A stretch of DNA of 61,096 nucleotides, filler included, from Dugesia japonica (taxonomy: Eukaryota), in the NCBI GenBank assembly GCA_001938525.1. It is 6 parts of 6 records of this genome, joined end to end, with 100 filler letters (N's around TTAATTAATTAA, not from the genome) between each part and the next. Parts side by side here need not be neighbours in the genome. Positions count along the whole stretch, not along the records: positions 43,387 to 52,400 come from MQRL01619595.1; 5 more parts are not named here. One strand, written 5' to 3'. This document shows, one piece after another, positions 23,002-61,052 of this stretch; position 1 is the first letter of the stretch; each line of letters begins with the position of its first letter. The notes beneath the pieces are model-generated. The model saw nothing but the letters and a program-made list of their open reading frames with translations. It was not told where the DNA came from and searched no databases. A program made the translations under genes and the position numbers.

Positions 23002-23223
23002 TTATCTCTTTATTATACCGTTCCATCCTCCGACATTCTTTAAAAACGGTTTGATTTGATCATTTGTTATCTTGACTATTGGCAAGGCGCTTCATTGAAA
23101 TTTCATTCCTGGTTTACAACGGGTCAATGCTATTTGCATTTGTTTTACTAAATATGCAAGTGCCACTAATAACCTTGGAGTCGCTGGACAATTTGACAAT
23201 AGTCCTTGTACCTTTTTTTCCAT
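23002..23223 (-). pseudogene. Bcl-2-like BH1-BH2 segment
   Basis: Manual translation: VQGLLSNCPATPRLLVALAYLVKQMQ...Q*SALPIVKITNDQIKPFLKNVGGWNGII. BH2-like GGW sits at the same position relative to env as in 43387-43572. Confidence 0.55.
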
Positions 23224-29049: not shown

Positions 29050-29705
29050 CTCATGGAACATTCCCACCTGTTCCTGGCAAACTTTCATCGATGAAAGTTC
29101 TTTAATTTACTAAAAGCCTCAAATAACTCATTACGTAATTGATTAAATCAATACATTGGGTTTCTACCCGACATTTTGAATTGGAACAATCTGCCTGATC
29201 CTGGAAATTTGTTGTTAGGACAAATTTTACAATTAATCAATACTCAATTTATTTCATTTCATTTCTCATAATACAACAATTGCGCCTGTTCCTGGTAATT
29301 TATCTTCCAAATAAACTTACTTTACTAATTGACGATCAATTCATTTCAACTTCACATCTCAAGTTGGTACACTCTCACCTGCCCTGGTAGTTTATCTTCT
29401 GGGTAAACTTTTAATATCAATTGACAATCACTTTATTTCATTTTCCTCTTACATTGAAACAATGTCGCCTGTTCCTGACAGTTTATACCCCGAATAAAGT
29501 TTTCATAACTAATCAATGATTAAATTATCTCCACTTTGCATTGTCCATTTGAAGGACGATTCAATCAATGCACACATCTTTCCCCTTCTCTTTAGATATT
29601 TCAATTACTAAATTTTGGCTATACTTCTTCCTTCATTACTTCACATTAGTACTCTTCAATTATTCACAATGGAACTCTGGCGCCGGTTCTTGGCAAACTT
29701 TCTTG
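29050..29705. repeat. Six dispersed degenerate repeats (core RCCTGTTCCTGG) in the element leader
   Basis: Copies near 29054, 29182, 29274, 29367, 29456 and 29670. Confidence 0.7.
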
Positions 29706-30324
29706 TGAAATTTTGTAAGTTCAAAGCTTTCCTCCAATATAAATTATCAATAAAATTGTCCTCAAATAATTCAATTTAACTCTACCCTCGGATAGTTTTA
29801 TTATTTCTTTTCAATGAACTATACACTCGGATAGTATTATTATTACTTTCAATTTTAACTATACGCTCGGATAGTTATATCATTTTCGACAAGATCTTCC
29901 TTAGTTCTCTTTTCGGTGGCCAACCGACAAAGTATCCGGAACGAATCACTGGTAATTAACTCACTACTCCAATATTTGCTTCAATATATTTCATTTCATT
30001 CCGTTATCATCTTNNNNNNNNNNNNNNNNNNNNTCGAATAAATTTCAGACTTTTCTCACAACAGTTTATTTGCTTTGAACACTCTCTATATGCAGCCGGT
30101 AGTCTATTTTTTAAGCTTCAGCCAGGCGACAATTTCGATCCTCAATTTAACTACTTTAATACTTCAATATATCAATGCTTGAGTCAGTTGACAGTCTATT
30201 TCTACTCAGCTCCAACCGCTCGCTAATGTGAAGGTTCTCAGTCAGAATCCCATGATCTAGCTGATATGTAGCTACGACGCTACCCGCGATCGCATTACTA
30301 AAATAAATTTCCAAATATAAACAA

Positions 30325-30338
30325 CACTACTGATGCCA
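30325..30338 (-). promoter_or_regulatory. Putative tRNA-Leu-like primer-binding site
   Basis: Minus strand ...CCCACA-TG-TGGCATCAGTAGTG resembles the Leu PBS TGGTGTCAGAAGTG, 2 nt after a CA LTR end. Confidence 0.5.
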
Positions 30339-30340
30339 CA

Positions 30341-31284
30341 TGTGGGCTAACTATTGTACTATCTTGTCAACACTGAGTCCTCTGATCGCAAGATATCAAG
30401 GACTATTTTCGGCCTCACCCTCAATTCCCAAAACTCTGTAGAGCTACGGGTAGTTAGCTGTAGGAGTGAGTGTCACGGCAGTTTTCATATTTTCGTCTAA
30501 TCTGCATCTAAGTCTACGGTGGTAATTTCTCCGACCGTTTCATCTGCAGTCGTTCGGTAATTTAACCATAGTGTCCTTAAAGATACAAACAAGGATCCTT
30601 CTCGGTTGGTGTATGTCTTTATAACATCCGCCATGAGCCTGTTTGCGTGCCGAAGGGACAGCTATTTTTCTTTAATCTGATTGTACTTCGCTGCAGACTT
30701 CATCACCTGTCCTTATTTCTTTTTGTTCCTCCTTCCACCTTTGCTGCGCGGCGATTACATCTTTTCAGCATTTTTTCATCATTGGATTGGTTCACTAGAA
30801 CTTTAGATATTACTTAATTGTAATAAGTTTTATTAAGATATATAAATAATATTAATTGGGGAATAAAAAATGTAATTTAAAGTGATTTGCAAAGGCATAA
30901 AATTGTTTGAAGGCTAAAGTACCTACAATCGCTCTCCAAATACACTTTTACACAAAATAAAAATAATGACTAAGTAAACTCGTTTAATTCCACGATTGCC
31001 TCTGCAACCCACACTAAAATGACTAGTCCAAAATTGTGACATACTTATCACCTAGCATATTTGCAACTAAAGGACTAAGATCTCAATTAACACAAGTTTT
31101 ATTAATCACACAGATGTTCGCTTTGATCTTACTCAACTGGCCTCTTTACATCCATGCCCAACGTCTCTCGTATTATTATTAATTCGATTTCTTCGGCCTG
31201 CGGCCTAACTGTTCTTGTTCCCCGCTCCTAAGATGCGAACCAAAGAAGATGACGATTCAGAACTACCATTTTTTCTCGTCCCCA
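30341..31284 (-). repeat. Putative 5' LTR of the giant element
   Basis: Ends CA next to the PBS; contains minus-strand AATAAA (~30828, ~31098); non-coding. No second copy in the window, so the start is a guess. Confidence 0.4.
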
Positions 31285-31495
31285 TGTTTGCAGAGCTCTC
31301 GACGGATATTCAAAAATCGAAGGATTTAACGAAAAAAAATTAAAATTATAATTCCTTTAGAAATCATTAAACATTTGTTTAATTTATGAATTAATTATTA
31401 TTCAAGTCATTCTACAATTATTTATTAATTCAAATATTGAAAACTAAATGAAAGGAAAATTGAGTGCATAATCACAAATACTGTATTCAAACTCT

Positions 31496-36428: not shown

Positions 36429-37069
36429 TTATAAAGCAGTTTTTGAAGTTCATTATCATAAAATCTACGTAAAATCTTTCCATTATCTATATCTGTAATT
36501 CCAAATGTTATTGGTTTTGTCTTGTATACTTTTGTTATTATAAATATTTCATTTGTCCATTTAGCTGTAAATCCTTTTTCAAATTTATAATTATATTTGA
36601 ATATTCTAACTCGATCTCCAATTTTAAATTTTTGTTTAAAATTAAAGTATTATGTTCATTTATTATTTCTTTTTTTTTCAGGATTTTCTGAAGCTTCTTT
36701 TGGAGTTACATTAATAAAACTATGAATTGTATTATTATATTCATTAACAACTTTTTGTAATAAATTATTTCATTTTTGATTTCCAACTGATGTAAAATAT
36801 TTCCACATTTTATTTTTAAATGTTTTATTAAATCTTTCTATAACAGCTGCTTTACCTTTATTTTCAGTGGAATATAAATTACTATTATTTTCATTACAAA
36901 AATATTTAAATATTTTATTATAAAATTCACTTCCTTTAGCAACCCATAAATTATTTGGAATTCCATTATTTTCTTCAATTATATTTTCAAATGCATTTGT
37001 TATTGCTTGACCTGTTTTTGAACAAGATATTTCAATAAATGCATATGTAGAATATAAATCAATAACTGT
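36429..37069 (-). pseudogene. Polinton retroviral-like (rve) integrase, interrupted at its 5' end
   Basis: TVIDLYS...LWVAKGSEFYN...KAAVIERFNKTFK...YNNTIHS...KFKIGDRVRI...FEKGFTAKWTNEIF. Confidence 0.9.
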
Positions 37070-38008
37070 TTTGGGGTGAAACACCCCGTTTGTAAAGAAA
37101 AATAAAAGCCAATGGCACAAGACGAAAAAATGTTGAAGAAAGGGGACCGAAGGGAAAGCCAATCAAGAACAACGTAGTTAAAATGTAAAAGTTGTAATAA
37201 TTACATCAAAGCTACAAGAAAAGTAATGAAGAATAATCAGTATGGCTAAATTAAGAAAAGATAAAAATACAAAGGAGAAGGAGATGAAGATCTTGCATCA
37301 GCAATTCTGACCCATATCAATTACAATAATTAAAAGAAATTATGAAATTAATAATAAAAGGCAAGAAACCCATTACTGGGAAATAATTCATTATCAGAAA
37401 ACATTAATTAATTTTAAATAAAAACATAAGTTAAAACTAGTCAAAAATCCGTTTTTTACGAATATCTTGGCTCAGAAAACTCATAGAAGCTAGGTGCAAG
37501 AAAATTTGAGAAGACAATGTATTAGAGCAATGGGATTTTGCCATGGGAAAACGATACCATCATCAGGAAGACCCCTACAAAGATTTGAAAATTGAGACGA
37601 TATACCTTATTGTGCACCAGAATTTATTTGGTGCAAAATAAAACAAATGACTGGAACGGATATAAAAAACGTGATGAACATATTCAGCGAATATCATAAA
37701 GAAGATATTGATTGCGTATATTTTTCTAGAAGGAAGAAAGATTTGATTAGAAAATTTATCGACTCTCTATCCTGAGTCTAATAAAAGACAATGTTAAAAA
37801 ATTTATGACAATTAATTTAATTAATTATTAAAAAAATTTTAATTTATATTTTAATTTATTTATTCTTTATTACTATTTAACATAAAAAATTTTTAAAAAA
37901 AATAAATGAATTTTAAAAAAAATTAAAAAAAAATAATAATAATAAAATTAAGTCTGCGGGGAAATCAAATATTAAGTATGCTTGATGATAGTTGTCATAG
38001 AAATAACC

Positions 38009-38708: not shown

Positions 38709-39719
38709 TGTAATAATGTGCTAAGAAATAAATGTTTTACTTGATAATTGTTTTGCCTTATTTACTTTTAATATATGGATAATACAAGGTAACTGTGCAA
38801 ATATTACCATCAAAAACCTTATATTATACAACTGCTATGTAAATAATTCAAGTAAATTTTGCATTCGAAACTTTATAATACACGTTTCATATGTAAATAA
38901 TACACTCATAAAGCCTCTAATAGACGGTTACCATGTAATTAATACAAGTTTACTACACAAATAATACAAACATAAATCTTATAATACAAGATTACTATGT
39001 AAATAATAGACTCATAAGCCATATAATTCTTTATTTACCCTCTTCTTTTTTAACCTATTCTGTTTTCTATACTCTTTTTTATAATCCTCTACTTTTCTTT
39101 CACTTACTCCTTTTCCTTTCTTTTACCTTCTTNNNNNNNNNNNNNNNNNNNNNNNNNNNNNNNNNNNNNNNNNNNNNNNNNNNNNNNNNNNNNNNNNNNN
39201 NNNNNNNNNNNNNNNNNNNNNNNNNNNNNNNNNNNNNNNNNNNNNNNNNNNNNNNNNNNNNNNNNNNNNNNNNNNNNNNNNNNNNNNNNNNNNNNNNNNN
39301 NNNNNNNNNNNNNNNNNNNNNNNNNNNNNNNNNNNNNNNNNNNNNNNNNNNNNTTTTTTATTCTCTTCTTTTCTTCCAACCTTTTCTTTTTTACTCTTTT
39401 CCTTTAATAAATAAATATTTACTTATTAGTCTTTTTATACAGACCTATTAGTTATATATGGGAAGGTTCCATGAATTTATGATTTTTATGAAAAAAGTCC
39501 TATGTTTTTATCATTTTGTTCTCGAAAATGTTCTCAACCAATATGTTTTTTATTTAAACTTGCAACAGTAATGAGACATTTTATTAAAAATTGCAACACC
39601 AATGAGACTTTTTATTTAAATTTGCATCACTAATATGCTTGTTTTATAGAAAATTACCTAGTTAATGTTTTTTATGAAAATTTTCTATGTTTTTATCATC
39701 TTGTAAAGAAAAGTTTTAA

Positions 39720-40240
39720 TTTGAATATTGTATTATGCAAATATCACAAAGACTCTCCTCTTTGAAGGTTTCTATTTTATCATGATATTATCACAAAGAC
39801 TACCCTGTTTGAAATATTTTGATATATTTTATCATGAAAATATTACAAAGACTCCATTCTTTGAACTTTTTAAAATATTTTATCATAATAATATCACAAA
39901 GACTACCCTGTTTGAAATATTTTGATATATTTTATCATGAAAATATCACAAAGACTTCATTCTTTGAACTTTTTTATTTTGTCATGATAATATCACAGAG
40001 ACTCCCCTCTTTGAACTTTTTATAAGAATATTTTCTCATGCAAATATCACAAAGAATCCCCTCTTTGAACTATTTTTAAATATTTTATCATGATAATATC
40101 TCAAAGACTCCACTCTTTCCACTTTTTTATAAGAATATTGTATCATGTTAATATCACAAAGACTCCCCTCTTTGGTTATTTTTAATTGTTATATTTTAAT
40201 CATGTAAATATCACAAAGTCTCCCCTCTTTGAAGTTTTTT
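39720..40240. repeat. Minisatellite, ~55-60-bp unit
   Basis: Repeated TATCATG...ATATCACAAAGACTCCCCTCTTTGAA. Confidence 0.9.
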
Positions 40241-40259
40241 GATAGATAAATTTTTATAA

Positions 40260-40640
40260 ATGCAACTCAGAAGCATTACAGCTGCAACATACATACACTG
40301 AAAATAACGTGCCTGGGAATTTTTGATTAATACATGCAATAGGTATGCGACTCAGTAACAACTCGGTAGCAACACACTTACACTGAAAATCACAAGTCTG
40401 AGTATTTTTAATAAATTCCTCATCAAAATAAGTTTTTTAAACTCAAAATAGCCGACATTCTGATTTTTAAAACTCAATATAGCTGCCATTTCGATTTTTG
40501 TTTAAATAAATGCAATAGATATGCAACTCAGTTGCAACTCATATGCAACACACATACATTAAAAATCACATTCCTGAGAAATTTTATTGATATTTAAAAT
40601 ATATACAATAGGTATGCAGCTCAGATACAAATCAGGTGTT
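40260..40640. repeat. Degenerate tandem repeat (ATGCAACTCAG...CACATACACTGAAAAT)
   Basis: Several copies visible by eye. Confidence 0.7.
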
Positions 40641-43386: not shown

Positions 43387-43572
43387 ATGAAGGAAGGAAT
43401 AAATAAAAATAAAGTAGTCACAGCTATTTTATACTTAATACTCAAGAATCGGAAACAATTAATTGAGAAACCTGATAAAAACATTGTAGTTGTAGAACGG
43501 ATAATCAATCAATTCTTGAACAAAGGAATTAATACTTGGATCACACAAGAAGGAGGATGGGAAACGTTATAT
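43387..43572 (+). CDS. Bcl-2-like domain (BH1-BH2 part; N-terminus beyond the contig edge)
   Basis: EGINKNKVVTAILYL...VERIINQFLNKGINTWITQEGGWETLY parallels Bcl-2 DGVNWGRIVAFFEF...[23 protein letters not shown] in spacing and in BH2. Confidence 0.68.
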
Positions 43573-43671
43573 CCAACAAACAATTGTAAACAAAGAATTC
43601 AACAAACCGAACAAGAAGATGAGATAAAGAAACTNNNNNNNNNNNNNNNNAAAAATTCAAATCGACCACTA

Positions 43672-45560
43672 ATGGGTACAATAATAACAATTATAATAAT
43701 GTTATTAGAATTAGCAAGAGGAGCAAACGCGTATATGATTGTAATACTCCCAAATGGGGAAAAATGTATTCATTATTGGATGTAGAAAATTGCCCAGAGG
43801 CGCATCCAACAAAAATAAAGGTATCAAATCCAATAATTATGCATTTATATTAAGAACCCGATTTTGTGCATGCAGAAGCATACAAATGTAGTATAAAATT
43901 TGAAGAAGAAATCTCATATTGTGATACTACACAAAGTATACCACTAATACCAGCTTGGTCTCCGGACATAGTGGTAGTAGATGCAAGCGACTGTGAAAAA
44001 GCATTTAAAACAAAAGTGTTGAAAGTACATGGGTACGAATTACAAGCAAGAGTTGGGGCGAGAATNNNNNNNNNNNNNNNNNNNNNNNNNNNNNNNNNNN
44101 NNNNNNNNNNNNNNNAAGAGTAGATGTTGTGGGATGGTCTACAGCAGATGGATATTGTGGAGGAGGAAATTATAGAATATGGGGACAAGCGAAATCTGAC
44201 ATCTTAGTTCGAAGACAATATCATATTGAATTAAAGAAAATAAAGGTGACGTTTGATGCTGCTACGGGAAAATGATGACACATCCATTTTGTAGCGTGAA
44301 AGATACAAGTTGTGATACTGGAGAATCAATGATGGTGTATAAAGTTAATCCGTTTGAATGTACAATTACGAAATTAAGGACGGTGGCAATGAGAGAAGTT
44401 AGTGGAACTCTACCAACAGATAAACCACCTAATATAAGAGATGCAAAAAGAAAAGCGACAGTGGTTGGTGAAAAAGCAACACCAACAATATATATATATA
44501 TATATATCGAATTCAACACAAGAAGCACTAAGACTCATTGAAAAAGGAGTAGACATTAAATGTGGGGTTGAAGTGATAGTAACAAATTATAATGGATTAT
44601 ATTTATCAGTAAAGGAAATAAAAGACGCCAGACCAGAGGTTGATAAACTAAATGTAAAAATAGCTGCATATTTCAATAATAAAATTGATTTTATCTATCA
44701 TGAAATTCTAAGACAAGTAGATAGAATATATCAAGAGACAATGATGAAAAATTGTAAAATCAAGCGGGAATTGCTAAGAGCAAAAATGGCAATGGTAGTC
44801 ACAAATCCAGATTTAGTAGCACCACTCTTGTTCGAGGAAAGAGGAACATTNGGAAGAATAGTGGGAGANACTTTAGTGAGTTTTAAATGTAAACCAGTAG
44901 CTGTTACGCTTACAGATCATGAGAAATGTACTAATGAATTACCAGTAATTTACGAAGGAGAAAAAGTGTTTTTGCTCCCAATAACAAGAATTTTAACAGA
45001 TAAACATTATTAGCCAAAAGTAATTGAAAAGTGTAGTAATATTCTTGATCCCATGTACAAATTAAATGAAGAAGTATGGATAACCGTATCAGACAGAAAG
45101 ACAGCACCAAGCCCACTGATGATGGAAATGATAGAGCTCGCTAGAACAACAGAATTGGAAAGGATTGATAATATGGAAAAACGTGGTATTTATACAATTA
45201 ATGATATTGAGAAAGNNNNNNNNNNNNNNNNNNNNNNNNNNNNNNNNNNNNNNNNNNNNNNNNNNNNNNNNNNNNNNNNNNNNNNNNNNNNGGAGTAATG
45301 GAGACGACGTGAATTTTGAATCACTATTACATGCAGATCATTTTAAAAGGGCAATGCGCAATTTCTTAGATAGATTTTTGGGGGGAATGGAATGGTTTGG
45401 TAATATATTCTCATGTATTTTGTTCGGGTGGTATGTCTTAACATTTTTAAAATTAGTGGGTCATCAAATACTTTCTTTGAGACAATTACATGCAGTTTTC
45501 GGTTATACATGGAAATTGGAAGCATGTTTCTGCCCATTTGTTGCAAAACATATGATTGTG
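43672..45560 (+). pseudogene. env: Chuvirus (Jingchuvirales)-like envelope glycoprotein
   Basis: Signal peptide, then AY/DC...YSLLDVENC; YFNNKIDFI...IYQETMMKNC; PDLVA...G...G.TL..FKCKPV; CTNELPV...FLLPITRIL; PMYK...W; GIYT; TM WFGNIFSCILFGWYVLTFLKL...LHAVFGYTWKL. Frameshifts, stops and N gaps. Confidence 0.85.
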
Positions 45561-45779
45561 CAAAATCACAGTGAAAAAATAAAAAATCTAGAAAAGCATC
45601 GAGGCGTATATACAATAAACATGGATGATGAGCAAGAGTTAAAAAAATTGACTAATGATAGGTCATCAGAGACAGAATATAAACCATATAAACAAGAAAA
45701 TATGGAATTAAAACAAATAAAAATAAATGATCCAGCACAATACAAATATCAAAAAAATTATGAAATAGCAGTCAAAAAT

Positions 45780-46100
45780 CCAGACAACAATAGACCAACA
45801 ACAGATATTGTAATAAATGGAATTAGTATACCTTCATTAATAGATACAGGAGCAGTATCCTCAATAATAACAGAATCATGGTTAAGTAAAGCCCAAAAAC
45901 AAAGAATAAAAGACTATAAACCTGATCATTTACCTGATCATAAACATAATCATTTACAGGTCATATAATAAAAACCAAAGGAATAATTGAATGTACAGTC
46001 ACAATCGGAACGGAGATTGTCACACATCCATTTAGAGTAATGGAGAATGGAACACAAAATTGTATTCTAGGCATGGATTTCCTTACACGATTAAAAGGTT
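45780..46100 (+). pseudogene. Retroviral-type aspartic protease
   Basis: SLIDTGAVSSII in the same ORF as the env TM; ILGMDFL follows after a frameshift at ~45960. Confidence 0.92.
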
Positions 46101-46712
46101 GTCATTGATCTACACGATAGTACATTAAAAATGATAAGTCCATTATCAATAGAGGCAAAATATAATGAAGTAATGGCAAATGAAAACATAATAATCGAAC
46201 GCTGTAGTGAAAACATAATACCGATAACCACTAAAGTAAGAAATGACGATTCATATATTTTTGAACCAAATAACAAATTAATAACAAAACAGAATCTATC
46301 AATGATGCCTGGATGTGTCAAACCAGAAAAAGGTGTAATACCAATAAGAATAGCAAATTATAATAATTACGATGTAACATTACATAAAGGAACAAGATTA
46401 GGAAAATTGTTTGAAAATGGTGATGAATATGAGATATGTAAAATCATAATTGAGGAGCAGACAGTCTTAAACAAACAATTTTTATCTCAAAGGAAAGCAT
46501 TTCAGTTAGGTAGCCAGGAAATATGTGAAATTATGTTAAATCAACAGGGCCAAACAAAAAAATCAAGCGAAATAGAATTAATTAAACCAAAACAAACCAA
46601 ATATTACGAGAAAGCAAAGATAACAAATAATGAACTTACAATGGGTTAAAGACAACAGTTACAAAAATTATTAGATAAATATGAGGACGCATTCGCAAAA
46701 CACTAATTTGAT

Positions 46713-48020
46713 ATGGGAGGAACTAATATCATAAAGCACATAATTGATACAGGCGAGGCAAGACCGATAAAGCAGCGACCATATGTGGCTCCTTATGCGT
46801 TAAGACCACCAATAAAAAGACAAATAAAACAAAAAGCAAATGGAATTATACGGGATAGTTTTTCCCAATGGGCATCACCAATAGTACCAGTCAAAAAGAA
46901 AGATGGTGAGATACGAATGTGTATTGATTATAGGAAACTTAATGAAGTTACAAAAAAATATACACAACCATTTCCAAAGATACATGAACAATTTAATAAA
47001 CTAATGAATGCAAAATATTTTGCAAGTTTAGATGCTAATAAAGGTTATAATATGATCCCAGTACAAGAAGAGGATAGAGAAAAAACAGCCTTTTGTACTG
47101 ATGATGGACTATATGAATTTGTCAGATTGTCGTTTGGGTTATGTAATGCACCAGCTACATTTCAAAGACTGATGAATGGAATGTATCAGTATTTATCAGG
47201 TGTTGAACATGTAGTTGTATACATGGATGATATACTCATAGCAACTGAAACATTCGAACAACATTTGATCAATATAGAAAATGTGTTATCCAGAATTAGA
47301 AAAGCAAATATCAAACTAAAACCTACAAAATTTAAATGAGCAGAAGAGAGTGTTATATTTTCAGAAAAAGTGAAAGCAGTACAAGAATTTCCAGTACCAA
47401 AAAGTGTACAATAGTTACAAGGATTTAATGGTCTAGTTGGATATTATCGAAGATTCATAAAAGATTTTACGAAAATAGCAGCACCATTAGTTGAATTAAC
47501 AAAGAGTATGAAAAAAAAGAAGAAAGCAAGAATGTTATGATCGTGGAGCAGCTGGAAGAAAATTAAAAGAAGCCTCAGAGGCTTTTGATACATTGAAACA
47601 ACGATTGCTAACAGCTCCCATATTAAGGTATCCTGATTTTACAAAGCAATTCATAGTAATGACTGACGCAAGTGGATATGCCATGGGGGCAGTACTTGGT
47701 TAGGAGGACGAGAAAAATAAAGATTATGTGATCGCATACGCCAGTAGAATGTTAAAAGGAGCAGAAACAAGGTATTCAACAATTGAAAAAGAGTAATTAG
47801 CCATTATATTTGCGTTAAAATCAATTTAGACCATTTATATACGGAACAGAAATAATTATCCAAACAGATCACAAACCATTAGAAGGTCTATGGAAAAACA
47901 AAGATGCATCCAGTAGAATACTGAAATGGGCAATGAAAATTNNNNNNNNNNNNNNNNNTATTATATACAAACCAGGTAGAGCAAATAAAAATGCTGATGC
48001 GTTATCAAAAATTCCGGAAA
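46713..48020 (+). pseudogene. pol: Reverse transcriptase and RNase H (Ty3/Gypsy)
   Basis: SQWASPIV, RMCIDYRKLN, FGLCNAPATFQRLM, YMDD; [31 protein letters not shown]. Confidence 0.95.
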
Positions 48021-48122
48021 TAAATAAAATAGAAATGATGTCAATAGTTATGACTGGAACAAACTCAAAAACCTTCATGGAAGAACAGAATAGAGATAAA
48101 AAAAATACAGGAGATTAAAAAG

Positions 48123-49300
48123 ATGATGCTTCAAGAAAAGAATACTAAATATAAAATGTATAAGAATTTGCTTGTGTACAATAATCTAGGAAAAAATCTG
48201 ATGGTTGTACCAGACTCTTTAAAACTATTATTATTATTACAATACCATGATGGAGCGCTTGGAGGACATTTATCCAGTAGAAAAACAACATCAAGATTAT
48301 TACAAAAATACTATTGGGATAATATTAAGGAAGATGTAAAAAAATGGTGTCAGGCATGTGGTATCTGTGCCACAAGAAAAAATACAGGAACAAAAACCAA
48401 AGTTCCACTACAACCAATGCCAATACCTAGCTCACCAATGGAAACATGTGCAATGAATTTTTGGTGCAAATTACCAACAACTATAAAAGGCAACAAACAT
48501 ATATTAGTATTCAATGATTATTTCACAAAGTGGGCAGAATCATTTGCCACAAAAGATGAGACAGCTGAAACAGTAGCAAGGCTATTAGTTGAAAAGATTA
48601 TATATAAATATGGGGCGCCGAGAAAATTGCTATCAGACAGAGGAAAGAGTTTCCTCAATGAGGTTATACAACGAGTAACCAATATGTTTGATATCAAAAA
48701 AATAAATACAACGGCTTATCACCCACAAACAGATGGGTTAGTTGAAAGATTTAACAGCACATTATGTAATAGATTGGCAGTCTTCGTAAATAAGCATCAA
48801 AATGATTGGGATCTATTTATTAAGCCAACGTTGTTTATACATAATACAACTGAGAACAAAGCCACGGGGTATTCACCATTTTATCTTATGTATCTAAGAC
48901 AAAATCATATGCCTATAGATATAACCAATTGTATCACAATATATGGATAACCCAGATTACGTTACAAAAATGCAAGATAGATTACAAGAAGTATATAAAC
49001 AAGCCAATCTAAAGGTAAAATTCAAACAAGAGCAATACAAAGACTATTACGATAAAAAAACTAAAGAACATAATTTTAAAGTAGGAGATAAAGTGAGAAT
49101 AAAGACACCAGTTACATAAAAAGGGTTAACAAATAAATTAGCAAGGCCTTACAAAGGTCCATATGAAATAGTAAAAACAACTCCTACAAACTTACACGTA
49201 ATAAGAAACAAAAAAGATGATCCCATGATTGTAGCAGTTAACCGATGTAAGTTAGCAGAAACAAAAATTGAACCAAAAAAACAACATAAATATAATCTTC
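48123..49300 (+). pseudogene. Integrase with HHCC zinc finger, DDE core and GPY module
   Basis: YHDGALGGHL...CQACGIC; SDRGKSF; TTAYHPQTDGLVERFN; FKVGDKV...YKGPYEI (after a frameshift at ~48945). Confidence 0.95.
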
Positions 49301-49314
49301 GATCAGGATCACAA

Positions 49315-49821
49315 AGCACATTACCAATTTTTGCAATAACTTTATTAACAATAATAGCAATGAGTGAAGCTCAATTAGAAGAGAAACATGGTTCTACTTA
49401 CATAACAAGAATAATTTATTCAAATAAAATTATACTCAAGGTACCGGAAGATAAAAAGAATATAATGTATATTTCTGCGCATATAAAAAACAATCCAAGG
49501 GTATACAAGGGAAAGGGTCAAGTAGAAATAGGAGGATTAGAAGCTAACACTGAATATAAACTCTGGATATGGGTGCGAACAGGTAGATACGGGGTAGTAG
49601 AACATCATATATTTACTACAGTACCTAAGAAACGAGAACAAGAGAAATCAAGTGCAACAAGAATGACAATAAAGACACAATATACGAATATTCTGAAAAA
49701 GCAAAGAAAGTTGAGTACAACCAAACCACAACAAAAAACAACTATCCCTCCAGCAAAATCACAAATAAAGACACAATATAGAACTATTCTGACAAAACAA
49801 AGAAAGTTGAGTACAACATAA
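49315..49821 (+). CDS. Signal/TM peptide + fibronectin type III-like domain + Thr/Lys-rich repeats, in frame with the integrase C-terminus
   Basis: YNLRS, then LPIFAITLLTIIAMSEA; VEIGGLEANTEYKLWIWV...FTT (FN3 GLxxNTEY motif); duplicated IKTQYxxILxKQRKLSTT. Confidence 0.62.
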   Translation, partial: STLPIFAITLLTIIAMSEAQLEEKHGSTYITRIIYSNKIILKVPEDKKNIMYISAHIKNNPRVYKGKGQVEIGGLEANTEYKLWIWVRTGRYGVVEHHIFTTVPKKREQEKSSATRMTIKTQYTNILKKQRKLSTTKPQQKTTIPPAKSQIKTQYRTILTKQRKLSTT

Positions 49822-50320
49822 CAATCAAACAGAAACAACTATTCCTCATAATACACCAGTATATGGTTATGCCATAATGACAAGTAAAATTAGAAATGAA
49901 AATCTGAAAAAAGATCATCAACAATTGAGACATAAAATTCTACAGATGTGGGTTACAACAACAATAAAACCATTTGACATAAAAATATTACATCACCCTT
50001 TTACAATATTGGAAAAATATTGTACTCTTCCTCCTCGCTTTCATAATTACGTTAATCCAAATGCATAAGCGATATAGGTGGAAGAGACAGCGTTATCGGC
50101 GTCGCAATGCCCCACAAATTCCGAATTATGTCTAATGGACATTGGTCTGAACACCCTGCGGTAAATTTAAAAGAAGAAATAATCTATATTATTATTTATA
50201 TATATATATATTTATTTATATAATAAGCTACTAATATCTGTAGCAGTATATAGGACTATTCAGTCCATAAAATCATCAATTAATTATATAATTATTCTAG
50301 ATATTACAACAACGCCGACA

Positions 50321-52348
50321 GTGATACAGACTCGAATATACGAACAAACACAACATTACATACATACTGAAACTGATAAAATATTTTACAAAAACATGCA
50401 GAAACATAACATGCACACAGACAAGCAGACAAGCAATAAATCAAAATATTCAAACACACAAGCAAATATGAATTCAACATATACACATACAAAGAATATG
50501 CCAGCAGATGTGCCCTCATCCTCAACTTTCATCACAAAGAATATGCCTATCTTTTATGAAAATATCCAAAATTTCAGTTTTTCTCATAAAGATGATGAAC
50601 CTAGAATAGAAATATTTAATGGCGTAACCAAGATCCCTAAAATGCTGAAGAACAATACCTTTGATAAAGATATAGTAATGATTAGGTTCCAGAAAGCACA
50701 ACGTTATAAATTGCAACAATTAATAGGTTATATTAAAATATATAAATATCAAGAGGATGCGTTAGNNNNNNNNNNNNNNNTTCTTCGCACAATTCGTATG
50801 CATGTTACAAAAACTCCTATCAAGTTTACGTATAAAATGCAAGAAGTAACGATACAAAATAACAGCTCATTGATTATAGACGACATTGTTACTGGAGATT
50901 GTAATAACATAAAAGTTGCAATAAGTGATATACTAGCAGTACTAGCTGTAGAACTAATTTATCATGATACAATCCCAATTCCATTTCCAACATTCACATC
51001 ACTCAAAGGTCAATGTGATGTCTCATTTATAGANNNNNNNNNNNNNNNNNNNNNNNNNNNNNNNAAAACACTGACAGTAGAAGATATTGAGCAATTGAGC
51101 GTGTATATAGATATAGAAACCGTTAAAGGTGTGTATTTTAATTCACAAGTAGTGGAAATCACAATCATGAACAACACAGGGGAAATCATATTAGATGAAA
51201 AAATATGTCCTAGGGAGCGAATTAGACATTTTGATGTAGAAAGAACGGGATGCAATCAAGAAAAAATAATGAAATACAAGGATGCATACCCCATAATACT
51301 AAAGGCCCGTCAACTAATATACGGAAAGATTTTAATTGGATATGATTTAGGTTAAAATTTAATAAGCCTACATATGGATCAAAGACATGTAATTGGAATT
51401 CGTGATCTAGCTGAGGAAAAATGGAGACGTATGTATACACCCAATGTTAAGAAGATAAGGTCTGTTAACCTGACGGAAGCGGTTTTTAAGCCATTACGGC
51501 ATGAGCGTGTTATTAAAGATATGTTAAACACGGCAAAAGATAGGCGAAATGAGTCAACAGCAAAACGTGTAGCATTTATAAAAATCACGTATCAACAAAT
51601 GATCTTACAACAGGTATGGCACGATTTGATAAAACCTGGTATGTCTAATATCCAGACAATAATAACAGATGATCCGTCATTACTACAGGAGATAGCGATC
51701 AGAGAGAAAGATAAGCCTGAAGCAATTAACTGGACAATGAGTTATAAAGCAGAATCACTTGATACGAGTGATGAAGAAGATGATGACGTTGATTTTGATA
51801 TTGAAAAACGATGGGAGCATTATGAAGCGTATGAAGCTGCAAAGAAAAATTGGCATGAGGAACAATTAGCTAACGAAATACGAGAAAGCAATCCAAAAGG
51901 AGTACCAGTAGATTTAGATGATAGTTGTACGGAATACTGGTCAGATGAAGATAAAAACTTGGAAGATCTTACGGTGGAACAAGTTAGAGAAGACTGTATA
52001 TATATGCCATATTTTACAGATAGTGAAAGCGATGACTCAATGGGACCGGAACCGAATATATTTTTAACTGAACCAGACTTTATCTGGACAGAAACGGTAA
52101 AGGAAAAGCGAAAGAAAGAGGGAGAATATAGATTATTAGGAAAATCCGAAGATGATATTTATTTAAAATATGGAAAAAAGAGAGTGAGATTGGCAAAAGT
52201 TGACGACGCTGGAAAGAAGTTACGATTTGTAGTAGAAAATACAATATTTAATAAAGTGGCAATGGAACAAGACGGCACATTGCTCACATTATCAGTAAAT
52301 AAAGACGATGACACATTGTTACATGTGTCTATTAATAAGACAATATGA
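50321..52348 (+). pseudogene. EEP-like domain + REX4/ISG20-like DEDDh exonuclease + acidic region; one in-frame stop at 51353-51355
   Basis: DEDDh: VYIDIETV...VVEITIMNNTGEIILDEKICP...TG...LIYGKILIGYDL...IRDLA. EEP-like: DIVMI, IVTGDCN, PTF...CDVSF. ORFs 50321 and 51374 share a frame. Confidence 0.72.
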
Positions 52349-52400
52349 CACATTATAACCAGCATATGTATATATATATATATATATACATATATATAAT

Positions 52401-54740: not shown

Positions 54741-56183
54741 ATGAGTACTTTTATTCCTACAAGCAAATCTGGTTCAACTATTCAATCAAATGATTTTGAT
54801 TTAGAAGATGTAATTAAACATACTGAAGCTAAATTAGCTTAACCTTTAGAATACAACTTAAATAATAAAATTACTAGTGAAATAAATAATCTTTATAAAG
54901 TTTATGTAAATGAATCGGGTGATAAAATAGAAAAACTAGAAGTTATTCAAGAACATAACACTGATAATGATGTTGTAAATAATAAATATTTAAAGAAATA
55001 TACCGATCAAATTAAAAAGGATATAGACAATAAAACAAATTTTAGAATAGACTTATTAACTATTAAAATAAATGAAACGATCAAATCTAAAATATTAAAA
55101 TTTAAAACTAAATTAGATAAAGAAATTAAAGATTTAATAGATAAAGAAATAAAACAAATAAAGTTAAAAACAAATGATTAAGTTAATCAATTGTATTCTT
55201 TTAAAGAAGTTCAAGAATAAGAAATGAAATCTTTAAAAGATATTGTAAAAGATAAAATAAATCAAGTTGAATTTAATTCTTTTAAACTGAAACAAGAAAC
55301 GACTTTCAAGAGTCTTCAAACATAGTTTAGTAAAAAATTAAATAATGATTCACGATTTACTTTCTTGAAACATTTATATATTAATACTTTTAATAATCAT
55401 TTATTATTTTTTATTAATAAAATAAGATGATATGAAAAATATTCCAATTTAAAAATTGAGTTTTGGTTATCATCTAATTTTGGTTTAGATGAGATAAATG
55501 ATAATTTTAGTTTTGAAGATTTAAGTGGTGTTGGTTTAACTATAAAAGGAAAACCAGAATTAAGATGGAGACATGTACTAGTAGGAAATACCCCCCTTTA
55601 GTTGTAATAAATGTTTTTATTTAAATAAAGGAGACCAATTTATTTCTAAACATGAATTTTAAAAAGATTTTGTTTTAATGATTCTTTATAATAGAGAAAG
55701 TCATTTCGATTTAAAAGGCGCGTTTATTCAAGGAGGTGAATCAAATAAAAATATAATAGGAGAATATAAAGAATATACATATTATGTACAATTAAATAAT
55801 GAAGAATTATATCATGATCCTAAACATTTTCCCAAGTTATTGTATATTGAAAAGAGAGGAAATCAAATTACCCTTTATTGAGGTCTTTGTGAAAAAAAAC
55901 AATACATTACTATAAAAAAAGATTTTGAATTTGGAAAACTAGTTATAGGTGATAAAAATACGAGTGGATTTATTTATGAATGTTTATGTTATGTAACTAC
56001 TTGTGTTGAAATAGATAACATTGATATATATCAAGAATTTTATAATCTTTATCGCGTACAAACAAGAGTATCTCGCCATGTTGCGCCTAAGAGCAGCCAA
56101 ATAGAGTTTGACAATAAAAATAATAACGAACATAGTTCTAAGGCAAAGCCTGATGAAACAATTATAAACTCAAAATATTATTA
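54741..56183 (+). pseudogene. Coiled-coil ORF, positional counterpart of 4054-5376
   Basis: Synteny between protease and membrane protein; heptad-rich; many stops. Confidence 0.45.
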
Positions 56184-56210
56184 AATTAAATTAATATTAT
56201 ATTATTAAAA

Positions 56211-56810
56211 ATGGATAAAGAATATGGTTGTATTTATCCAGATATAAATGAAGAAGATCAATTTAATAGAACTGCATCTATATCTGATTATAAGAACGCA
56301 ACGGAGTTGACGAGGCAATATGCCGATAAATTAAAAACATTAAGAATTAAAGACTTTGAAAATGGTTTAACATTCTTAACTGATAAAATAAATCATTATA
56401 ATAAATTATTTAGAAGATGGAAAATGTTTGATACGGGTGTAAGATATACCGATATTTTAATAGGATCTTTATTTGGTGCAGCAGGTATAACAATAACTGT
56501 TTTAGCTACAAGTGGTATAGTTATTTTAACTTTACCTGTTATTAGTCTTGGTACATTTTCTTTAACTAATTCAATTATTCATGGTATATTGAACATCGGA
56601 TTAATTAAAAGAAAAAAGAAATATAATGATTTGAATTAAGAATTAGAAACTAGTAAAAATAAATTATTTCTTTATCATCAGAAATGTTTACATGATAATA
56701 TATTACCACATGAAGAAATAAATACTAGTAAAACAATTGTTAATGAAATCAAAAATAAAATATTAAAGATTAAAACTGATATTGAAGTTAAAGAAGAAAA
56801 AAATAGATAA
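56211..56810 (+). pseudogene. Membrane protein homologous to 5389-6075
   Basis: IYPDI, RIKDFE, HYNKLFRRW, GVRYTD, IHGILNIGLIKRK; frameshift near 56615. Confidence 0.8.
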
Positions 56811-57915
56811 AGATGATACTTTTTTATAAACAAAGCTAAAGGAAATGAAAACTATAATAAATCAGCCTACGCCAAAAGTACGAAAAAAATAAATTAGAAA
56901 TAGATTATAATTGTTTAAATTGTATAAAATTAAAAATTAATTATAAAAATTAAAGTAAATATTTTTAAAAAAATGGTAAACGAAAGACATATTATGCGAA
57001 TTAATAATCTTATTAAAATAATTGGTGTTAACCATGAATTAGAAAATAAAATTAAAGAAGAAGAATATAAAATTCCTCAACATAATAAAAGATTGCAAGC
57101 TAATTTCTTAGCCACTATATATTTAAATTTCTATTCGCCTAGTGAGATTTAAGAAATATTTAACTGTATTGCTTCTTTATCACCAGGCGAGGAAAACAAA
57201 AAATTGATTGAAATATTAAAAGGTTATAATGAATATGATGATGATGATGATGATATTTTTTTAATCCAGCTGCATTTGCCAGAGGAATTTTTGGCTAAGA
57301 CTGGTAATTGTTCAATTAAAAGTTATTTATAACAGTTATTTATAAAAATTAGTTATAAAAAATATGTCAAACGAAATTATAAATTATTTTGCTAATAGTA
57401 AAGAATTTATCGCAATAAAATAAAGTTGCATTAGCACCCGAATTATTTATTAAATTTAAACAATATGAAGCAGCTATAAAATTAGCTGGATGAACAATTA
57501 TTAATCTTGATATTAAAAATGAAGTTTTAGTTCAACAACTTGATAAGTATGGTAAATATAATCCAGAAGAATTAAATAGAGTAATTAAATATAAAGAATT
57601 AGAAGAATCTAATAAAGATAATCATGAAAGATTGAAATATAGATTATTTAAAGCATTAGATCAATGTAAGACTATAAAATAAAATAATAAAGCAAATATT
57701 GAAGAGAAAAATAAAATACATTTATTTTTATCTCTCTTTTCTATAATATTAACCAATCTTTTTAACTCATCGCAAATATAGGTTAACTGCGCCGATTTTA
57801 ACACGAAATGTTTATCTAGTTCATTAAATATTTCTTCATTTGTTTTTTTATGTGTGTTGTTTTCGCTAGTATTTAAATTTTTTATTGTTTGTAATTGACC
57901 GTGGTTGATCGCGGT

Positions 57916-58263
57916 CTAATTGCGGTCACCTCGAGACAATGAAAAAAACTGATTTTTCAGATATTCCACCTCTTTTTCATTAAAATCAATTAAATATTTC
58001 AAATGTGCAAAATCAATAATTGAAGCATCTTTATTACTTTGCCCTGAATATACAGATTGTAATAAATATATAGATGATTTTAAATATCGCATATATTTAT
58101 AATAAGTTGTTCTTTTTATTTCATAATCTGTTTCTAATGTAAAAGCTCCCAACATTTTTGGTAAGCTCTTGAATTGTTTTTTTCGTTGAAATACGAATAT
58201 TCTAGCAATAATATCATAATTTTCTATAAATGTTATTATGTTCTTATTATTAGGTACAGGCAT
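57916..58263 (-). CDS. Polinton hypothetical protein
   Basis: Intact 115-aa ORF with TATAAAAATG start context; no family recognised. Confidence 0.45.
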   Translation of the reverse strand: MPVPNNKNIITFIENYDIIARIFVFQRKKQFKSLPKMLGAFTLETDYEIKRTTYYKYMRYLKSSIYLLQSVYSGQSNKDASIIDFAHLKYLIDFNEKEVEYLKNQFFSLSRGDRN

Positions 58264-58296
58264 TTTTATAAAATAAATTAATTATAAATTAACCAT

Positions 58297-59313
58297 TTAG
58301 ATTTCTGGCTCTAAATATCTAAATTTTTCAAAATGACTGTATTGTTCGTGAAAATTAATTAAAACCTCACATTGGAAACTGTCGGTTTTTATTTTATAAT
58401 TCGAAATATGCAATGGAGATGATATATAACTTTTTAGGAGTGTATTATTATTTTCTAATGATTTTGGATCTAATTCAAGAACATTTATAGNAATGTTGAA
58501 TAGTTTTTCCAAAATCTTAATCTCATTTATTGGAAAACCCCTCTTCATTATCTGATTTACATCTATACCATTTTCCATTAATACATTAGTATTTATTCCT
58601 TTAAAATATTTTGAATAATATTTAAAATCGCTTTTATGATGCGAATCATTTGTTGAGGAAATAAATACGCAATTATATGCCAAAATATTCAGAAATTATC
58701 TTTTGTTTTAATATTTATTATTGAATTGGATCTAAATGAAAGATTTAAAATATGCCATCCGCGTAGAAATTTAACTCTGGTGAATTCTAATGTAAAATCT
58801 TTGAAACCTATTATTCTCCAATTGCTTCCTTGAAAACTGTTCATCTTATTGTCGAAAACATTATTTATACTAATATACGTTTCTTCATCATTATTTCTAC
58901 TATTATTAAAATAAATTAAAGGATTCGACTGAATTAATATATTCTGTTCTTAAGTATTTCTATTTTCTACCTCTTCATTAATTAATATGTCATCTCTTTT
59001 CATATAAACGGTGCAAAAAATTTAAAACTAATTTATAAGGACATGGTTCTATCTTACCTCTGATTGTATTTTCAAAACCAGACAAATAGGTATTTATGTT
59101 ATCACTTAAAAGTAAATCTTGAGATATAGTTTCTTTTAAATAATAAGGGAGAACATTTATTACTTCCAATCTATTATTCTCCCGTTGATCGCGATTATAT
59201 CTTCGCACTTCTCGGTAATTAAAGAGAGAGGTGAGTCTATTAAGTCTATTTATCCTATTTCTCCTTATAATTGGAGGTAAATTGGGATTATCATTTCTTC
59301 GTAATGCTGGCAT
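58297..59313 (-). pseudogene. pPolB N-terminal (terminal-protein-region)-like ORF without polymerase domains
   Basis: FQGSNWRI..FKDFTLEF...SIINIKTKDNF*IFWHIIAYL...FPINEIKILEKLFNIXINVLE matches QGSGWSF...ILNIKNPKNDFNCFKYCIIAHL...MPMDIKNIPKFERLNDFKVNVFE of 6649-7330. Confidence 0.7.
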
Positions 59314-59499
59314 GTCTTTTTTTATTAAATAAATAACTTTTAATTATTATTTATCTTATTTACTAAAAATAATGTATTTTATCAAAGTGTAGTAGTTGGT
59401 AAATAGGCTGGATGGCACTTGTGGCGTTTTTTAGATTATTTCGCCGTTTTATGCATGGTTCCAAATATTTTATTTAATAAATTTAACTAATTGGTTCAA

Positions 59500-60475
59500 A
59501 TCTTATAAAAATATTTATGGTGATTCATCTGGATGGATTCCAGACACAAACAAAGGAGATTTAGATATTACTTGGGAAGGAAATGAAGGTTTTTTAAAAA
59601 GAAATAAACTTTATGACTCAAAAAAAAATTTCTGGGTTGTTTCCCTTTAAACCTTTTTTTGGATTTATACAATGTTATAATAGATTATTATATAATACAA
59701 AGATTGAATTTACTTGTAATCGACAAATTGATGATAAATTAGTATTTTATTGTGATACAGGTAAAAAAAAACTTTTAAACTAACAACTTTAGAATAACAT
59801 ATACCAGAATGTAGATTATTACCAAAAATGGAAGTAAATCTATTAGAAAGAATTTATACAAATAAATCTATTCAAGTTTCGTTTTTAAATAGAATTACTT
59901 CAAGTACTACTTTAGATTCTGGAAATAAATATTCACTTAAATTGAATAATTTAGTTTATAAACCAAGATATTTATTTATTGTAATAAAAGATGAAGACAT
60001 TTCTTATCAAAAGAATATTAATTTATTTTTCCAACAAATAAGTGAAACTGAAAAGAAAAAAGAAGGGACTCCAGCTGCAGAAAAAGAAGTTACAACAAAA
60101 CATTATCTTAAAAGAAATCAAGTACAATTAAACAATACATATTATCCTATTAATGAATGTAAATTTAATATTAAAAATAATGAAATCATTTTTCCATATT
60201 TAAATTATGTAAATTGTTGTAAAGACTTTTTAACAGAACCACAAGTATCTCTTCAAGAGTTGGGCAATTTATACCCAATCTTTTGTTTTGATGTTAGTTG
60301 CCAAGACGACAAATTAAATATAAATACCGTAGATATAACTTTACAATAACTAAAGATACTGATTTTAAAGGGTCTTTATGTTGGTGTATTTTAGAAGAAA
60401 AACATTTTGAAATGAAGTTATCTAATTCTAAAATTGTAAGAATTGAAAATAAACGAGGAGAAAGTTATGTTTAAA
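59500..60475 (+). pseudogene. Major capsid protein (double jelly-roll), C-terminal part
   Basis: NEGFLKR, PLKPFFGF, KPRYLFIV, LNNTYYP and YPIFCFDVSCQ motifs typical of Polinton MCP. Confidence 0.85.
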
Positions 60476-60509
60476 GTTTAAGTTGAAAAATCACACATTT
60501 AGATTTTAA

Positions 60510-61052
60510 ATGAATAAAAATAAATGTATTTGTGAATATTGTAATAAAATATTACTTGGAAAAAATAAAGCTAGATATTTACGAATTTGATTAAAGAATA
60601 TTCAAACTAATAGTGGTGGTGATGGGAAAGCTCAAGCCGAAGGCGATCTTCAATCTTCTAAATTAACTTCAACAATTTTAAAACAATTTACTTGGGAAAA
60701 ATATCCAGGTGAAAGACATTTATTTAAACATAATTATACTGGTCCCGTAACAAGATTAGATTTAAGATNAGATGAAAATAATAATCCAAAACCTGGAGAA
60801 GAACCAATTAATAGAGTAGACGAAGCAGCTTTTAAACATGATTTATCTTATAAAAATGAAAATATTAGAGATAGACATTTAGCTAATGTAAATTTAATTC
60901 ATGATTTAAATAATATTCCTAATCCTAGTATTTCAGAAAAAGTACAAAGAAGTTTAGTAAAATTAGCAATTAAAGATAAATTTATTTTAGAATCTGGAGT
61001 AAGTCTGAGCAAAGCGAAGACTTTCCTCACAAATTCAAATAGAAATAAGTAG
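60510..61052 (+). pseudogene. Parvovirus VP1u-type phospholipase A2 with N-terminal zinc finger
   Basis: Not in the ORF track. HNYTGPVT (Ca-loop-like), PINRVDEAAFKHDLSY (catalytic HD) and RHLAN; N-terminal CEYC finger with one TGA. Confidence 0.85.

What the first reader, a model, noticed from the sequence alone, without database searches (positions are those of the whole stretch)
43387..52348. Giant Ty3/Gypsy 'retrovirus' with a chuvirus-type envelope placed upstream of, and fused to, pol
Seen: between 45292 and 45968 there is no gap, stop or frameshift. One reading frame runs from the glycoprotein membrane anchor (WFGNIFSCILFGWYVLTFLKL...LHAVFGYTWKL) into the aspartic protease (LIDTGA), and Ty3/Gypsy RT, RH and IN follow. 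The glycoprotein has the Cys/motif series of chuvirus G. Known: env normally sits 3' of integrase as a separate ORF, and the chuvirus-G captures I know of are in BEL/Pao elements (mosquito 'Anakin'). Inference: a single gag-X-Bcl2-env-pol polyprotein processed by host signal peptidase plus the element's protease, like an RNA-virus polyprotein. This would be an independently evolved enveloped retroelement. The architecture recalls, from memory and needing verification, the giant planarian 'Burro' elements; I do not recall a fusogen being described in them.
Basis: partly seen in the sequence, partly recalled or inferred. Interest (0 to 1): 0.93.

Follow-up and report, generated by a model that had tools for sequence, protein, structure and literature searches.

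The report
Decayed Burro-like enveloped retrotransposon, two glycoproteins
This is a broken copy of a high-copy jumping gene whose virus-type membrane-fusion gene runs in frame into its enzymes, a layout already published for the giant Burro elements of planarians, and the only possibly unreported part is a predicted second surface protein (a fibronectin-like domain behind a likely signal peptide) at the far end of the same reading frame.

Summary
One stop-free frame (45294-45965) runs from the envelope membrane anchor into the protease. The envelope matches the chuvirus-type fusion family. A natural relative is predicted to fold like chuvirus G and herpes gB. The join is not chimeric: 9 of the 12 best natural relatives carry env plus protease in one protein, and three DNA runs cover it.

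The novelty claim fails. Arkhipova & Yushenova 2019 described in-frame env between BCL2 and protease in planarian Burro elements. Chary & Hayashi 2026 catalogued GAG-ENV-POL gypsy elements with gB-type env in flatworms, nematodes and bryozoans; their Smed_errantivirus_3 is the closest named match. This scan reached the same verdict on another genome (e1-8072092).

Gag, LTRs and giant size lie outside this 9-kb contig, and the copy is decayed.

Not found in the papers I could read: after integrase the frame continues into a second signal-like stretch, an FN3 domain and a Thr-rich stretch. Four of 5 relatives extending that far show signal-FN3 motif-anchor. It is likely a second, perhaps attachment, glycoprotein.

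The parts
43387..43575 (+). C-terminal part of a Bcl-2-like domain (BH2-type WITQEGGW at 43537-43560), cut off by the contig start
   Evidence: Pfam Bcl-2 E 0.016, below cut-off; Bcl-xL E 0.023; matches the Bcl-2-like region of relatives P0006 and P0002, E 2e-5 and 9e-5
43672..43731 (+). Predicted internal signal peptide 1, in front of the envelope's conserved xYDC start
   Evidence: Hydrophobic stretch, KD 2.1; relatives have a like stretch before A[YF]DC; cleavage is inferred, no SignalP run
43731..45400 (+). Chuvirus/gB-type (class III) envelope ectodomain, broken by frameshifts, stops, a microsatellite and N runs
   Evidence: PF24664 colinear hits; colinear tblastn with 7 of 7 relatives tested; the model of relative P0002 matches chuvirus G and herpes gB
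45405..45810 (+). Envelope membrane anchor, conserved amphipathic tail segment and linker, in one open frame with the protease
   Evidence: Stop-free 45294-45965; anchor-to-DTG distance 148 residues against 124-384 in the 10 of 13 relatives where the anchor pattern matched
45813..46100 (+). Aspartic protease (DTG at 45843-45851), frameshifted
   Evidence: Pfam gag-asp_proteas on both halves, E about 0.002 each
46170..46430 (+). Conserved ~85-residue domain between PR and RT, the position where Burro carries a dUTPase-like domain
   Evidence: Matches 5 stored relatives, E 2e-12 to 3e-4; no Pfam dUTPase hit; the dUTPase label comes from PMC6431247 only
46707..47504 (+). Reverse transcriptase (YMDD 47220-47231) and connection, with stops
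   Evidence: RVT_1 E 2e-30; tblastn
47560..47940 (+). RNase H, frameshifted
   Evidence: RT_RNaseH_2 E 7e-15 and RT_RNaseH E 7e-8
48207..49280 (+). Integrase (H2C2 zinc finger, core, C-terminal domain), broken near 48950 and 49117
   Evidence: Integrase_H2C2 E 3e-19, rve E 2e-9; tblastn 46-55% identity for the C-terminal part
49315..49371 (+). Predicted internal signal peptide 2, in the same open frame (49120-49818) as the integrase C-terminus
   Evidence: Hydrophobic stretch, KD 1.9; a like stretch after integrase in 5 of 5 relatives that extend that far
49372..49625 (+). Fibronectin type III domain of a predicted second surface protein
   Evidence: A 5-sequence profile hits FN3 proteins in PDB, Tie2 E 2e-4; AlphaFold2 pLDDT 82, all-beta; top Foldseek hits are FN3 domains, TM about 0.6, E 3e-4; Atlas lead 0.83
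49626..49818 (+). Thr/Lys-rich stretch with a 96-nt duplication, a likely stalk; its membrane anchor is not resolved in this copy
   Evidence: Repeat D17; S+T 30%; a downstream TM is present in the 4 FN3-motif relatives; here the only candidate (near 50186-50236) overlaps an AT microsatellite
51092..51580 (+). ISG20/REX-like DEDDh 3'-5' exonuclease-like domain with one stop, followed by an acidic tail to 52348; membership in the element likely but not shown
   Evidence: ISG20 E 0.016 and SDN1 E 0.34; no Pfam hit; no match among stored relatives; same purine strand bias as pol

Best explanation
This is a decayed copy of a high-copy Burro-like Ty3/gypsy element whose envelope anchor is in frame with its protease, and whose intact form likely made one long polyprotein that is predicted to be threaded through the ER membrane and cut into Gag, a gB-type fusion protein, the Pol enzymes and a second FN3 surface protein. 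Shown: domain order Bcl-2-like, env, PR, RT, RH, IN, FN3; the open env-PR frame; single natural proteins with env+PR+RT+RH+IN, one of them (P0021) with a zinc knuckle in front. Inferred: Gag and the Bcl-2-like domain stay in the cytosol. Signal 1 sends env into the lumen and host signal peptidase frees its xYDC start. The env anchor returns the chain to the cytosol, where the protease would release PR, RT-RH and IN. Signal 2 sends FN3 and the stalk into the lumen, and a second anchor fixes it. Gag particles would bud through membrane carrying env trimers as the fusogen, with the FN3 protein as a likely attachment or accessory surface protein, and the Bcl-2-like domain would blunt apoptosis of the producer cell. 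This copy cannot make the polyprotein.
For: Open frame and shuffle control. Of the 12 best hits to the env core, 9 carry env then protease in one protein and the other 3 end before that point. Seven proteins join env to RT/RH: P0004, P0007, P0010, P0019, P0021, P0152, P0154. Single tblastn HSPs span anchor to protease for P0001, P0004, P0007, P0008 and P0154. The window env nests in a clade of 21 rows holding all 16 polyprotein rows, SH-aLRT 95, quick tree. Fold of relative P0002: HSV gB E 7e-14 in PDB, Tacheng tick virus 4 G E 2e-43 in BFVD. Hydrophobic segments alternate so that PR-RT-IN fall on the cytosolic side; the segment behind the env anchor is weaker (KD 0.8-1.6 against 1.8-2.4). FN3 evidence. 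Three DNA runs lay 4966-7270 contigs on 45294-47930, with all 30 bins covered. Published match: PMC6431247 section 7; PMC13524379 supplement, where Smed_errantivirus_3 shares 28 of 52 residues with window 44117-44272 by my count by eye, against 32-40% for database relatives there.
Against: No gag or LTR in the contig. Cleavage sites and topology rest on hydropathy only; the segment behind the env anchor could be a second membrane pass, which would put the protease in the lumen. The second anchor is not resolved in this copy, and 1 of 5 relatives (P0019) lacks the FN3 motif. That motif was chosen after seeing the sequences, and pairwise similarity among the post-integrase regions is not significant (best E 0.008 at Z=1000). 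The env fold was obtained for a relative (39% identical), not for this copy, with TM-scores to gB of only about 0.35. RNA of the family is scarce: 17 reads on the env-RH stretch in one run and 9 and 7 reads on the IN-FN3 stretch in two runs, mostly partial. I found no report of particles, fusion or infection for Burro elements (paper searches).
Confidence: 0.75

Rival explanations
1. The element is real and env is in frame, but it replicates inside cells. Env and the FN3 protein act as membrane tethers, cell-to-cell contact factors or decoys against superinfection and host signalling, not as the coat of free infectious particles.
For: A one-to-one Gag:Env:Pol polyprotein is unlike the ratio of retroviruses (own knowledge). 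These elements collect many accessory domains (ankyrin, C2H2 and repeated proteases in P0154; DEDD exonucleases in rotifer elements, PMC5408684 passages). The FN3 and stalk region is far less covered by look-alike contigs than pol.
Against: Env keeps a whole class III fold and the conserved cysteines in relatives. The signal-FN3-anchor order after integrase recurs in 4 divergent relatives.
Confidence: 0.2
2. The env-protease frame is an assembly chimera or a chance insertion of a chuvirus endogenous element next to an ordinary gypsy pol.
For: The contig is short and gapped; no listed contig piece spans the whole stretch, and one low-depth contig (5.9) skips 45599-45833 in one run.
Against: The same junction exists in natural single proteins at only 24-29% identity across it. 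All bins across 45600-45780 are deeply covered in 3 of 3 DNA runs with no dominant joint. The layout is published for planarian elements.
Confidence: 0.02
3. The FN3 module and the exonuclease belong to a neighbouring host gene or nested insertion, not to the element.
For: The exonuclease has no match among stored relatives and is separated from the FN3 frame by stops and frame changes. Laid depth falls over both regions.
Against: FN3 shares a stop-free frame with the integrase C-terminus (49120-49818), and relatives carry the same module in the same protein as integrase. Depth rises again at 49934-50121. This rival stays open for the exonuclease only.
Confidence: 0.05

Closest known systems
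Burro / GYPSM1 giant gypsy-like LTR retrotransposons of dugesiid planarians (Arkhipova & Yushenova 2019, PMC6431247, section 7 read whole; Grohme 2018 and Jurka 2007 not held, seen only as cited there)
   Same: BCL2-like domain, then env with mononegavirus-type glycoprotein homology, in frame with PR; a domain between PR and RT; RT-RH-IN; high copy number. That paper also notes decaying Burro fragments with stops and frameshifts in a third planarian species.
   Different: This contig shows no gag, LTR, MATH, SUMO, BIR or ankyrin. It has a signal-FN3-stalk module and a DEDDh-like domain after integrase, which that section does not mention (its figure was not visible to me).
GAG-ENV-POL errantiviruses with HSV/gB-type env, especially Smed_errantivirus_3 (Chary & Hayashi 2026, PMC13524379; abstract, section 14, part 1 of sections 5 and 6, term searches and supplement rows seen)
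   Same: Env before pol, gB-type class III ectodomain, Ty3/gypsy pol. The env domain I-II sequence of Smed_errantivirus_3 is the closest named match (28 of 52 residues, counted by eye).
   Different: Their elements are intact (14.5-18 kb for the six Smed entries); this copy is broken. Their main text has 0 occurrences of 'fibronectin', 'exonuclease', 'polyprotein', 'fused' or 'Burro'.
Non-canonical nematode ERVs with env before pol (Sacco et al. 2022; not held, seen only as cited in PMC13524379)
   Same: Metavirus with an RNA-virus glycoprotein placed before pol.
   Different: Different host phylum; reported as not monophyletic with the other GAG-ENV-POL groups.
Anakin BEL/Pao elements of mosquitoes (Dezordi et al. 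2020, PMC7642597; passages seen)
   Same: Chuvirus-type glycoprotein in an LTR retroelement.
   Different: BEL/Pao backbone; this element carries the Ty3/gypsy Pfam set.

Membership tests
Burro/GYPSM1-like elements | Gypsy-type PR-RT-RH-IN | tested here: met
   Pfam order
Burro/GYPSM1-like elements | Env between a BCL2-like domain and PR, in frame | tested here: met
   Open env anchor-PR frame; Bcl-2 match weak but in place; continuity inside the ectodomain shown only by relatives
Burro/GYPSM1-like elements | One ORF of about 4,900-5,100 aa beginning with Gag and CCHC knuckles | tested here: inconclusive
   Contig starts inside Bcl-2 and is broken. Relatives P0008, P0012 and P0021 have gag signatures before env in one protein; P0154 is 4,844 aa
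Burro/GYPSM1-like elements | Over 25 kb internal region, over 30 kb with LTRs | not testable with these tools
   9-kb contig between spacers; no genome held
Burro/GYPSM1-like elements | Accessory motifs MATH, SUMO-like, BIR, ankyrin (variable among families) | tested here: inconclusive
   None by Pfam in this contig; ankyrin in relative P0154; some lie upstream of Bcl-2, outside the contig. Filed as Burro-like, not as Burro-1
Burro/GYPSM1-like elements | High copy number in a planarian genome | tested here: inconclusive
   Thousands of 90-99% identical contigs in 3 DNA runs, so high copy; the organism is coded, and a planarian host is inferred from the nearest named env
GAG-ENV-POL gB-type errantiviruses | HSV/gB-type (class III) env | tested here: met
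   PF24664 on window pieces; fold of natural relative P0002 matches gB and chuvirus G
GAG-ENV-POL gB-type errantiviruses | Env upstream of a Ty3/gypsy pol | tested here: met
   no GyDB profile or named RT tree was available
GAG-ENV-POL gB-type errantiviruses | Gag upstream of env | not testable with these tools
   Outside the contig; present in relatives and in the window's second element
GAG-ENV-POL gB-type errantiviruses | Infectious enveloped particles | not testable with these tools
   Bench question; not shown in the passages read
Anakin (BEL/Pao) | BEL/Pao-type gag-pol | tested here: not met
   Pfam set is gag-asp_proteas, RVT_1, RT_RNaseH, Integrase_H2C2; no Pao peptidase A17 hit in window or relatives (family assignment of these Pfam models is own knowledge)

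The most novel reading that the evidence does not exclude
Burro-like elements are two-glycoprotein enveloped retroelements: one polyprotein yields a gB/chuvirus-type fusogen before pol and a fast-evolving FN3-stalk attachment protein after integrase, both cut out by host signal peptidase. That would split receptor binding from fusion, as in herpes- and paramyxoviruses, within a single retrotransposon ORF.
Probability: 0.3. Interest if true: 0.7.

Novelty: new member of a known kind. Interest (0 to 1): 0.3.

Why it matters
The headline layout is already in print, so the locus mainly adds a decayed member. The post-integrase signal-FN3-stalk-anchor module gives a concrete candidate for how these elements choose target cells, which bears on how retroelements spread in animals whose stem cells carry the germ line. 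If it is a virion attachment protein, this would be an LTR retroelement with separate binding and fusion proteins made from one reading frame.

Tried and rejected
No genome is held, so no search for intact copies or LTRs. Word-indexed protein searches found nothing for the env core among longer proteins or for the post-integrase module; the HMMER search of representatives did find env relatives. Pfam does not recognise the FN3 domain, the exonuclease or the dUTPase-like region. Pairwise phmmer among post-integrase regions is near noise. No RNA holder was listed by the run search. No RT tree with named elements was built because no named reference sequences were available; only an env-core tree (quick method; 122 rows, hits covering under 175 query residues or under 40 bits dropped). 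The wide VIA-align search for the FN3 model was not run. Grohme 2018 and Sacco 2022 are not held, and figures are not visible, so an FN3 annotation there cannot be excluded. Paper searches for a retroelement FN3 module listed no paper that appeared to report it, judged from listings only. Searches of earlier scan notes for FN3 words and by sequence were blank. Rejected: chimera, BEL/Pao membership, and the claim that the layout is undescribed.
Full report
Setting. The window is a chain of contigs joined by 100-nt spacers of N around TTAATTAATTAA, so neighbouring contigs need not be neighbours in the genome. The finding fills one contig, 43387-52400, which is about 30% G+C and purine-rich on the + strand. 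No genome is held. The host is coded as organism A; a planarian is inferred from the nearest named relative.

Observation. The frame 45294-45965 is stop-free for 224 codons and runs from the env anchor to LIDTGA; 0 of 2000 shuffles reach that length. Of 21 pieces scanned with Pfam, four from this contig hit Monjiviricetes_fusion in colinear order (best E 8e-29), followed by protease, RVT_1, RNase H and integrase models. A Bcl-2-like fragment sits at the contig start with weak scores. The copy is decayed throughout, with frameshifts, stops, microsatellites and N runs, and even the protease changes frame. Gag and LTRs are not in the contig.

Is the env-pol fusion real? A phmmer search with the env core found 668 proteins at E<=0.001 and 13 at E<=1e-30. 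I scanned 19 of the 150 listed, chosen as the best and the longest, and four cluster mates. Nine of the 12 best hits have env followed by a protease in one protein; the other three end before that point. Seven proteins join env to RT and RNase H. P0021 carries zinc knuckle, env, PR, RT, RH and IN in 2,146 residues, and P0154 is 4,844 residues long. Seven relatives tested map colinearly on the contig; five of them give a single alignment that spans anchor and protease. Three DNA runs lay 4966-7270 contigs of 90% identity or more on 45294-47930, cover all 30 bins and show no dominant joint at 45600-45780. At several pol stops of this copy the other contigs read differently, so these look like private decay. 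The chimera idea is rejected.

What kind of envelope? The natural relative P0002 (39% identical over the env core) was folded with an 81-sequence alignment at mean pLDDT 82.8. Its best PDB matches are herpesvirus gB (E 7e-14, TM about 0.35), and its best viral-library matches are chuvirus and related glycoproteins (E 2e-43, TM 0.53). In a quick tree of 122 env-core rows the window env lies in a clade of 21 rows that holds all 16 polyprotein rows (SH-aLRT 95), apart from the stand-alone 600-700-residue glycoproteins. That points to one old capture for this group and not to a recent local one; the rows are unnamed and the root is a midpoint.

What is known. [quoted passage not shown] Chary & Hayashi 2026 (PMC13524379; abstract, section 14, part 1 of sections 5 and 6, term searches and supplement rows) report GAG-ENV-POL gypsy elements with gB-type env in flatworms, nematodes and bryozoans and list six from Schmidtea mediterranea. 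Their Smed_errantivirus_3 env shares 28 of 52 residues with window 44117-44272 by my count by eye, more than the 32-40% of the database relatives that aligned there.

What may be new. The open frame 49120-49818 continues from the integrase C-terminus into a second hydrophobic signal-like stretch, a 90-residue domain and a Thr-rich repeat. All 5 stored relatives that extend well past integrase have a signal-like stretch there, and 4 of 5 also have an FN3-type LxPxTxY motif and a later membrane anchor (the motif was picked after inspection). A profile of the five domains hits mostly FN3 proteins among 34 PDB sequences (best E 2e-4). The window's own domain folds at pLDDT 82 as a beta sandwich whose top Foldseek hits are FN3 domains, and the Atlas gives the same lead at 0.83, below its reliable range. 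Look-alike contigs are roughly ten- to fifty-fold thinner over this region than over most integrase bins and recover right after it. That fits a fast-diverging surface protein, though such depths are crude. The second anchor is not resolved in this copy. Further 3' lies a weak ISG20-like DEDDh exonuclease match (E 0.016). DEDD exonucleases are known as extra ORFs of rotifer LTR elements (PMC5408684, passages); the label DEDDh rests on the ISG20 hit and motifs I recall. Neither module appears in the text I could read; Grohme 2018, Jurka 2007 and all figures were unavailable.

Mechanism. Shown: domain order, in-frame fusion and, for a relative, a predicted class III fold. Inferred: signal 1, anchor 1, signal 2 and anchor 2 alternate so that Gag and PR-RT-IN are cytosolic while env and FN3 are luminal. 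Signal peptidase would free both ectodomains and the element's protease would free the enzymes. Particles would bud with env as fusogen and the FN3 protein as a likely attachment or accessory factor. Against this: no particle or fusion data, few RNA reads in three poly(A)/cDNA runs (17, 9 and 7), and a moderately hydrophobic segment behind the env anchor that could alter the topology.

Verdict. A real, decayed member of a known group of Burro-like GAG-ENV-POL elements; interest 0.3. The remaining lead is the second, FN3-type glycoprotein (probability about 0.3 of being a virion attachment protein; interest 0.7 if so).

Noticed in passing
window 22321-31495, minus strand: A second, heavily decayed element in another contig: gag-like region near 28000-27300 with CCHC knuckles, a long unknown region, a Bcl-2-like BH2 motif near 23020, a signal peptide and the env start AWDC near 22860. 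Its env start is only 28% identical to the finding's and hits relatives at E 1e-14 to 7e-21. Short direct repeats lie upstream at 29039-29702.
   Followed up: partly
window spacers at 11383, 22221, 31496, 43287, 52401: 100-nt N spacers with TTAATTAATTAA join separate contigs; adjacency across them means nothing.
   Followed up: yes
window 630-9860, 36770-37162 and 54843-61052: Gene sets that look like Polinton/Maverick elements (packaging ATPase-, protease-, protein-primed PolB-, integrase- and capsid-like ORFs); labels by eye, not tested.
   Followed up: no
window 18310-21041: An ordinary, distantly related Ty3/gypsy pol (24-43% identity to the relatives).
   Followed up: partly
proteins P0154, P0008, P0004, P0012: Relatives carry repeated aspartic protease domains (7 Pfam stretches in P0154, 5 DTG-type motifs in P0008), plus ankyrin and C2H2 fingers in P0154; the window copy has one protease.
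   Followed up: no
protein P0019: Has what looks by eye like a DEDDh exonuclease before env and a different, non-FN3 ectodomain after integrase; no detectable similarity to the window's exonuclease.
   Followed up: partly
protein P0007 (HBK71150.1): An env-pol-FN3 retroelement polyprotein is labelled as a hypothetical protein of a Flavobacteriaceae MAG, likely eukaryotic contamination of that bin.
   Followed up: no
window 45180-45210 and 45597-45630: Two similar peptide stretches (RGIYTIND and RGVYTINM) before and after the env anchor; the first is a conserved env motif, the second is unexplained and may be chance.
   Followed up: no
window 49934-50121: A short stretch after the stalk is as deeply covered by look-alike contigs as integrase, unlike its flanks; a conserved coding or cis element of unknown role.
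   Followed up: no
window 39714-40600: Arrays of ~50-nt and ~85-nt degenerate direct repeats in the preceding contig.
   Followed up: no
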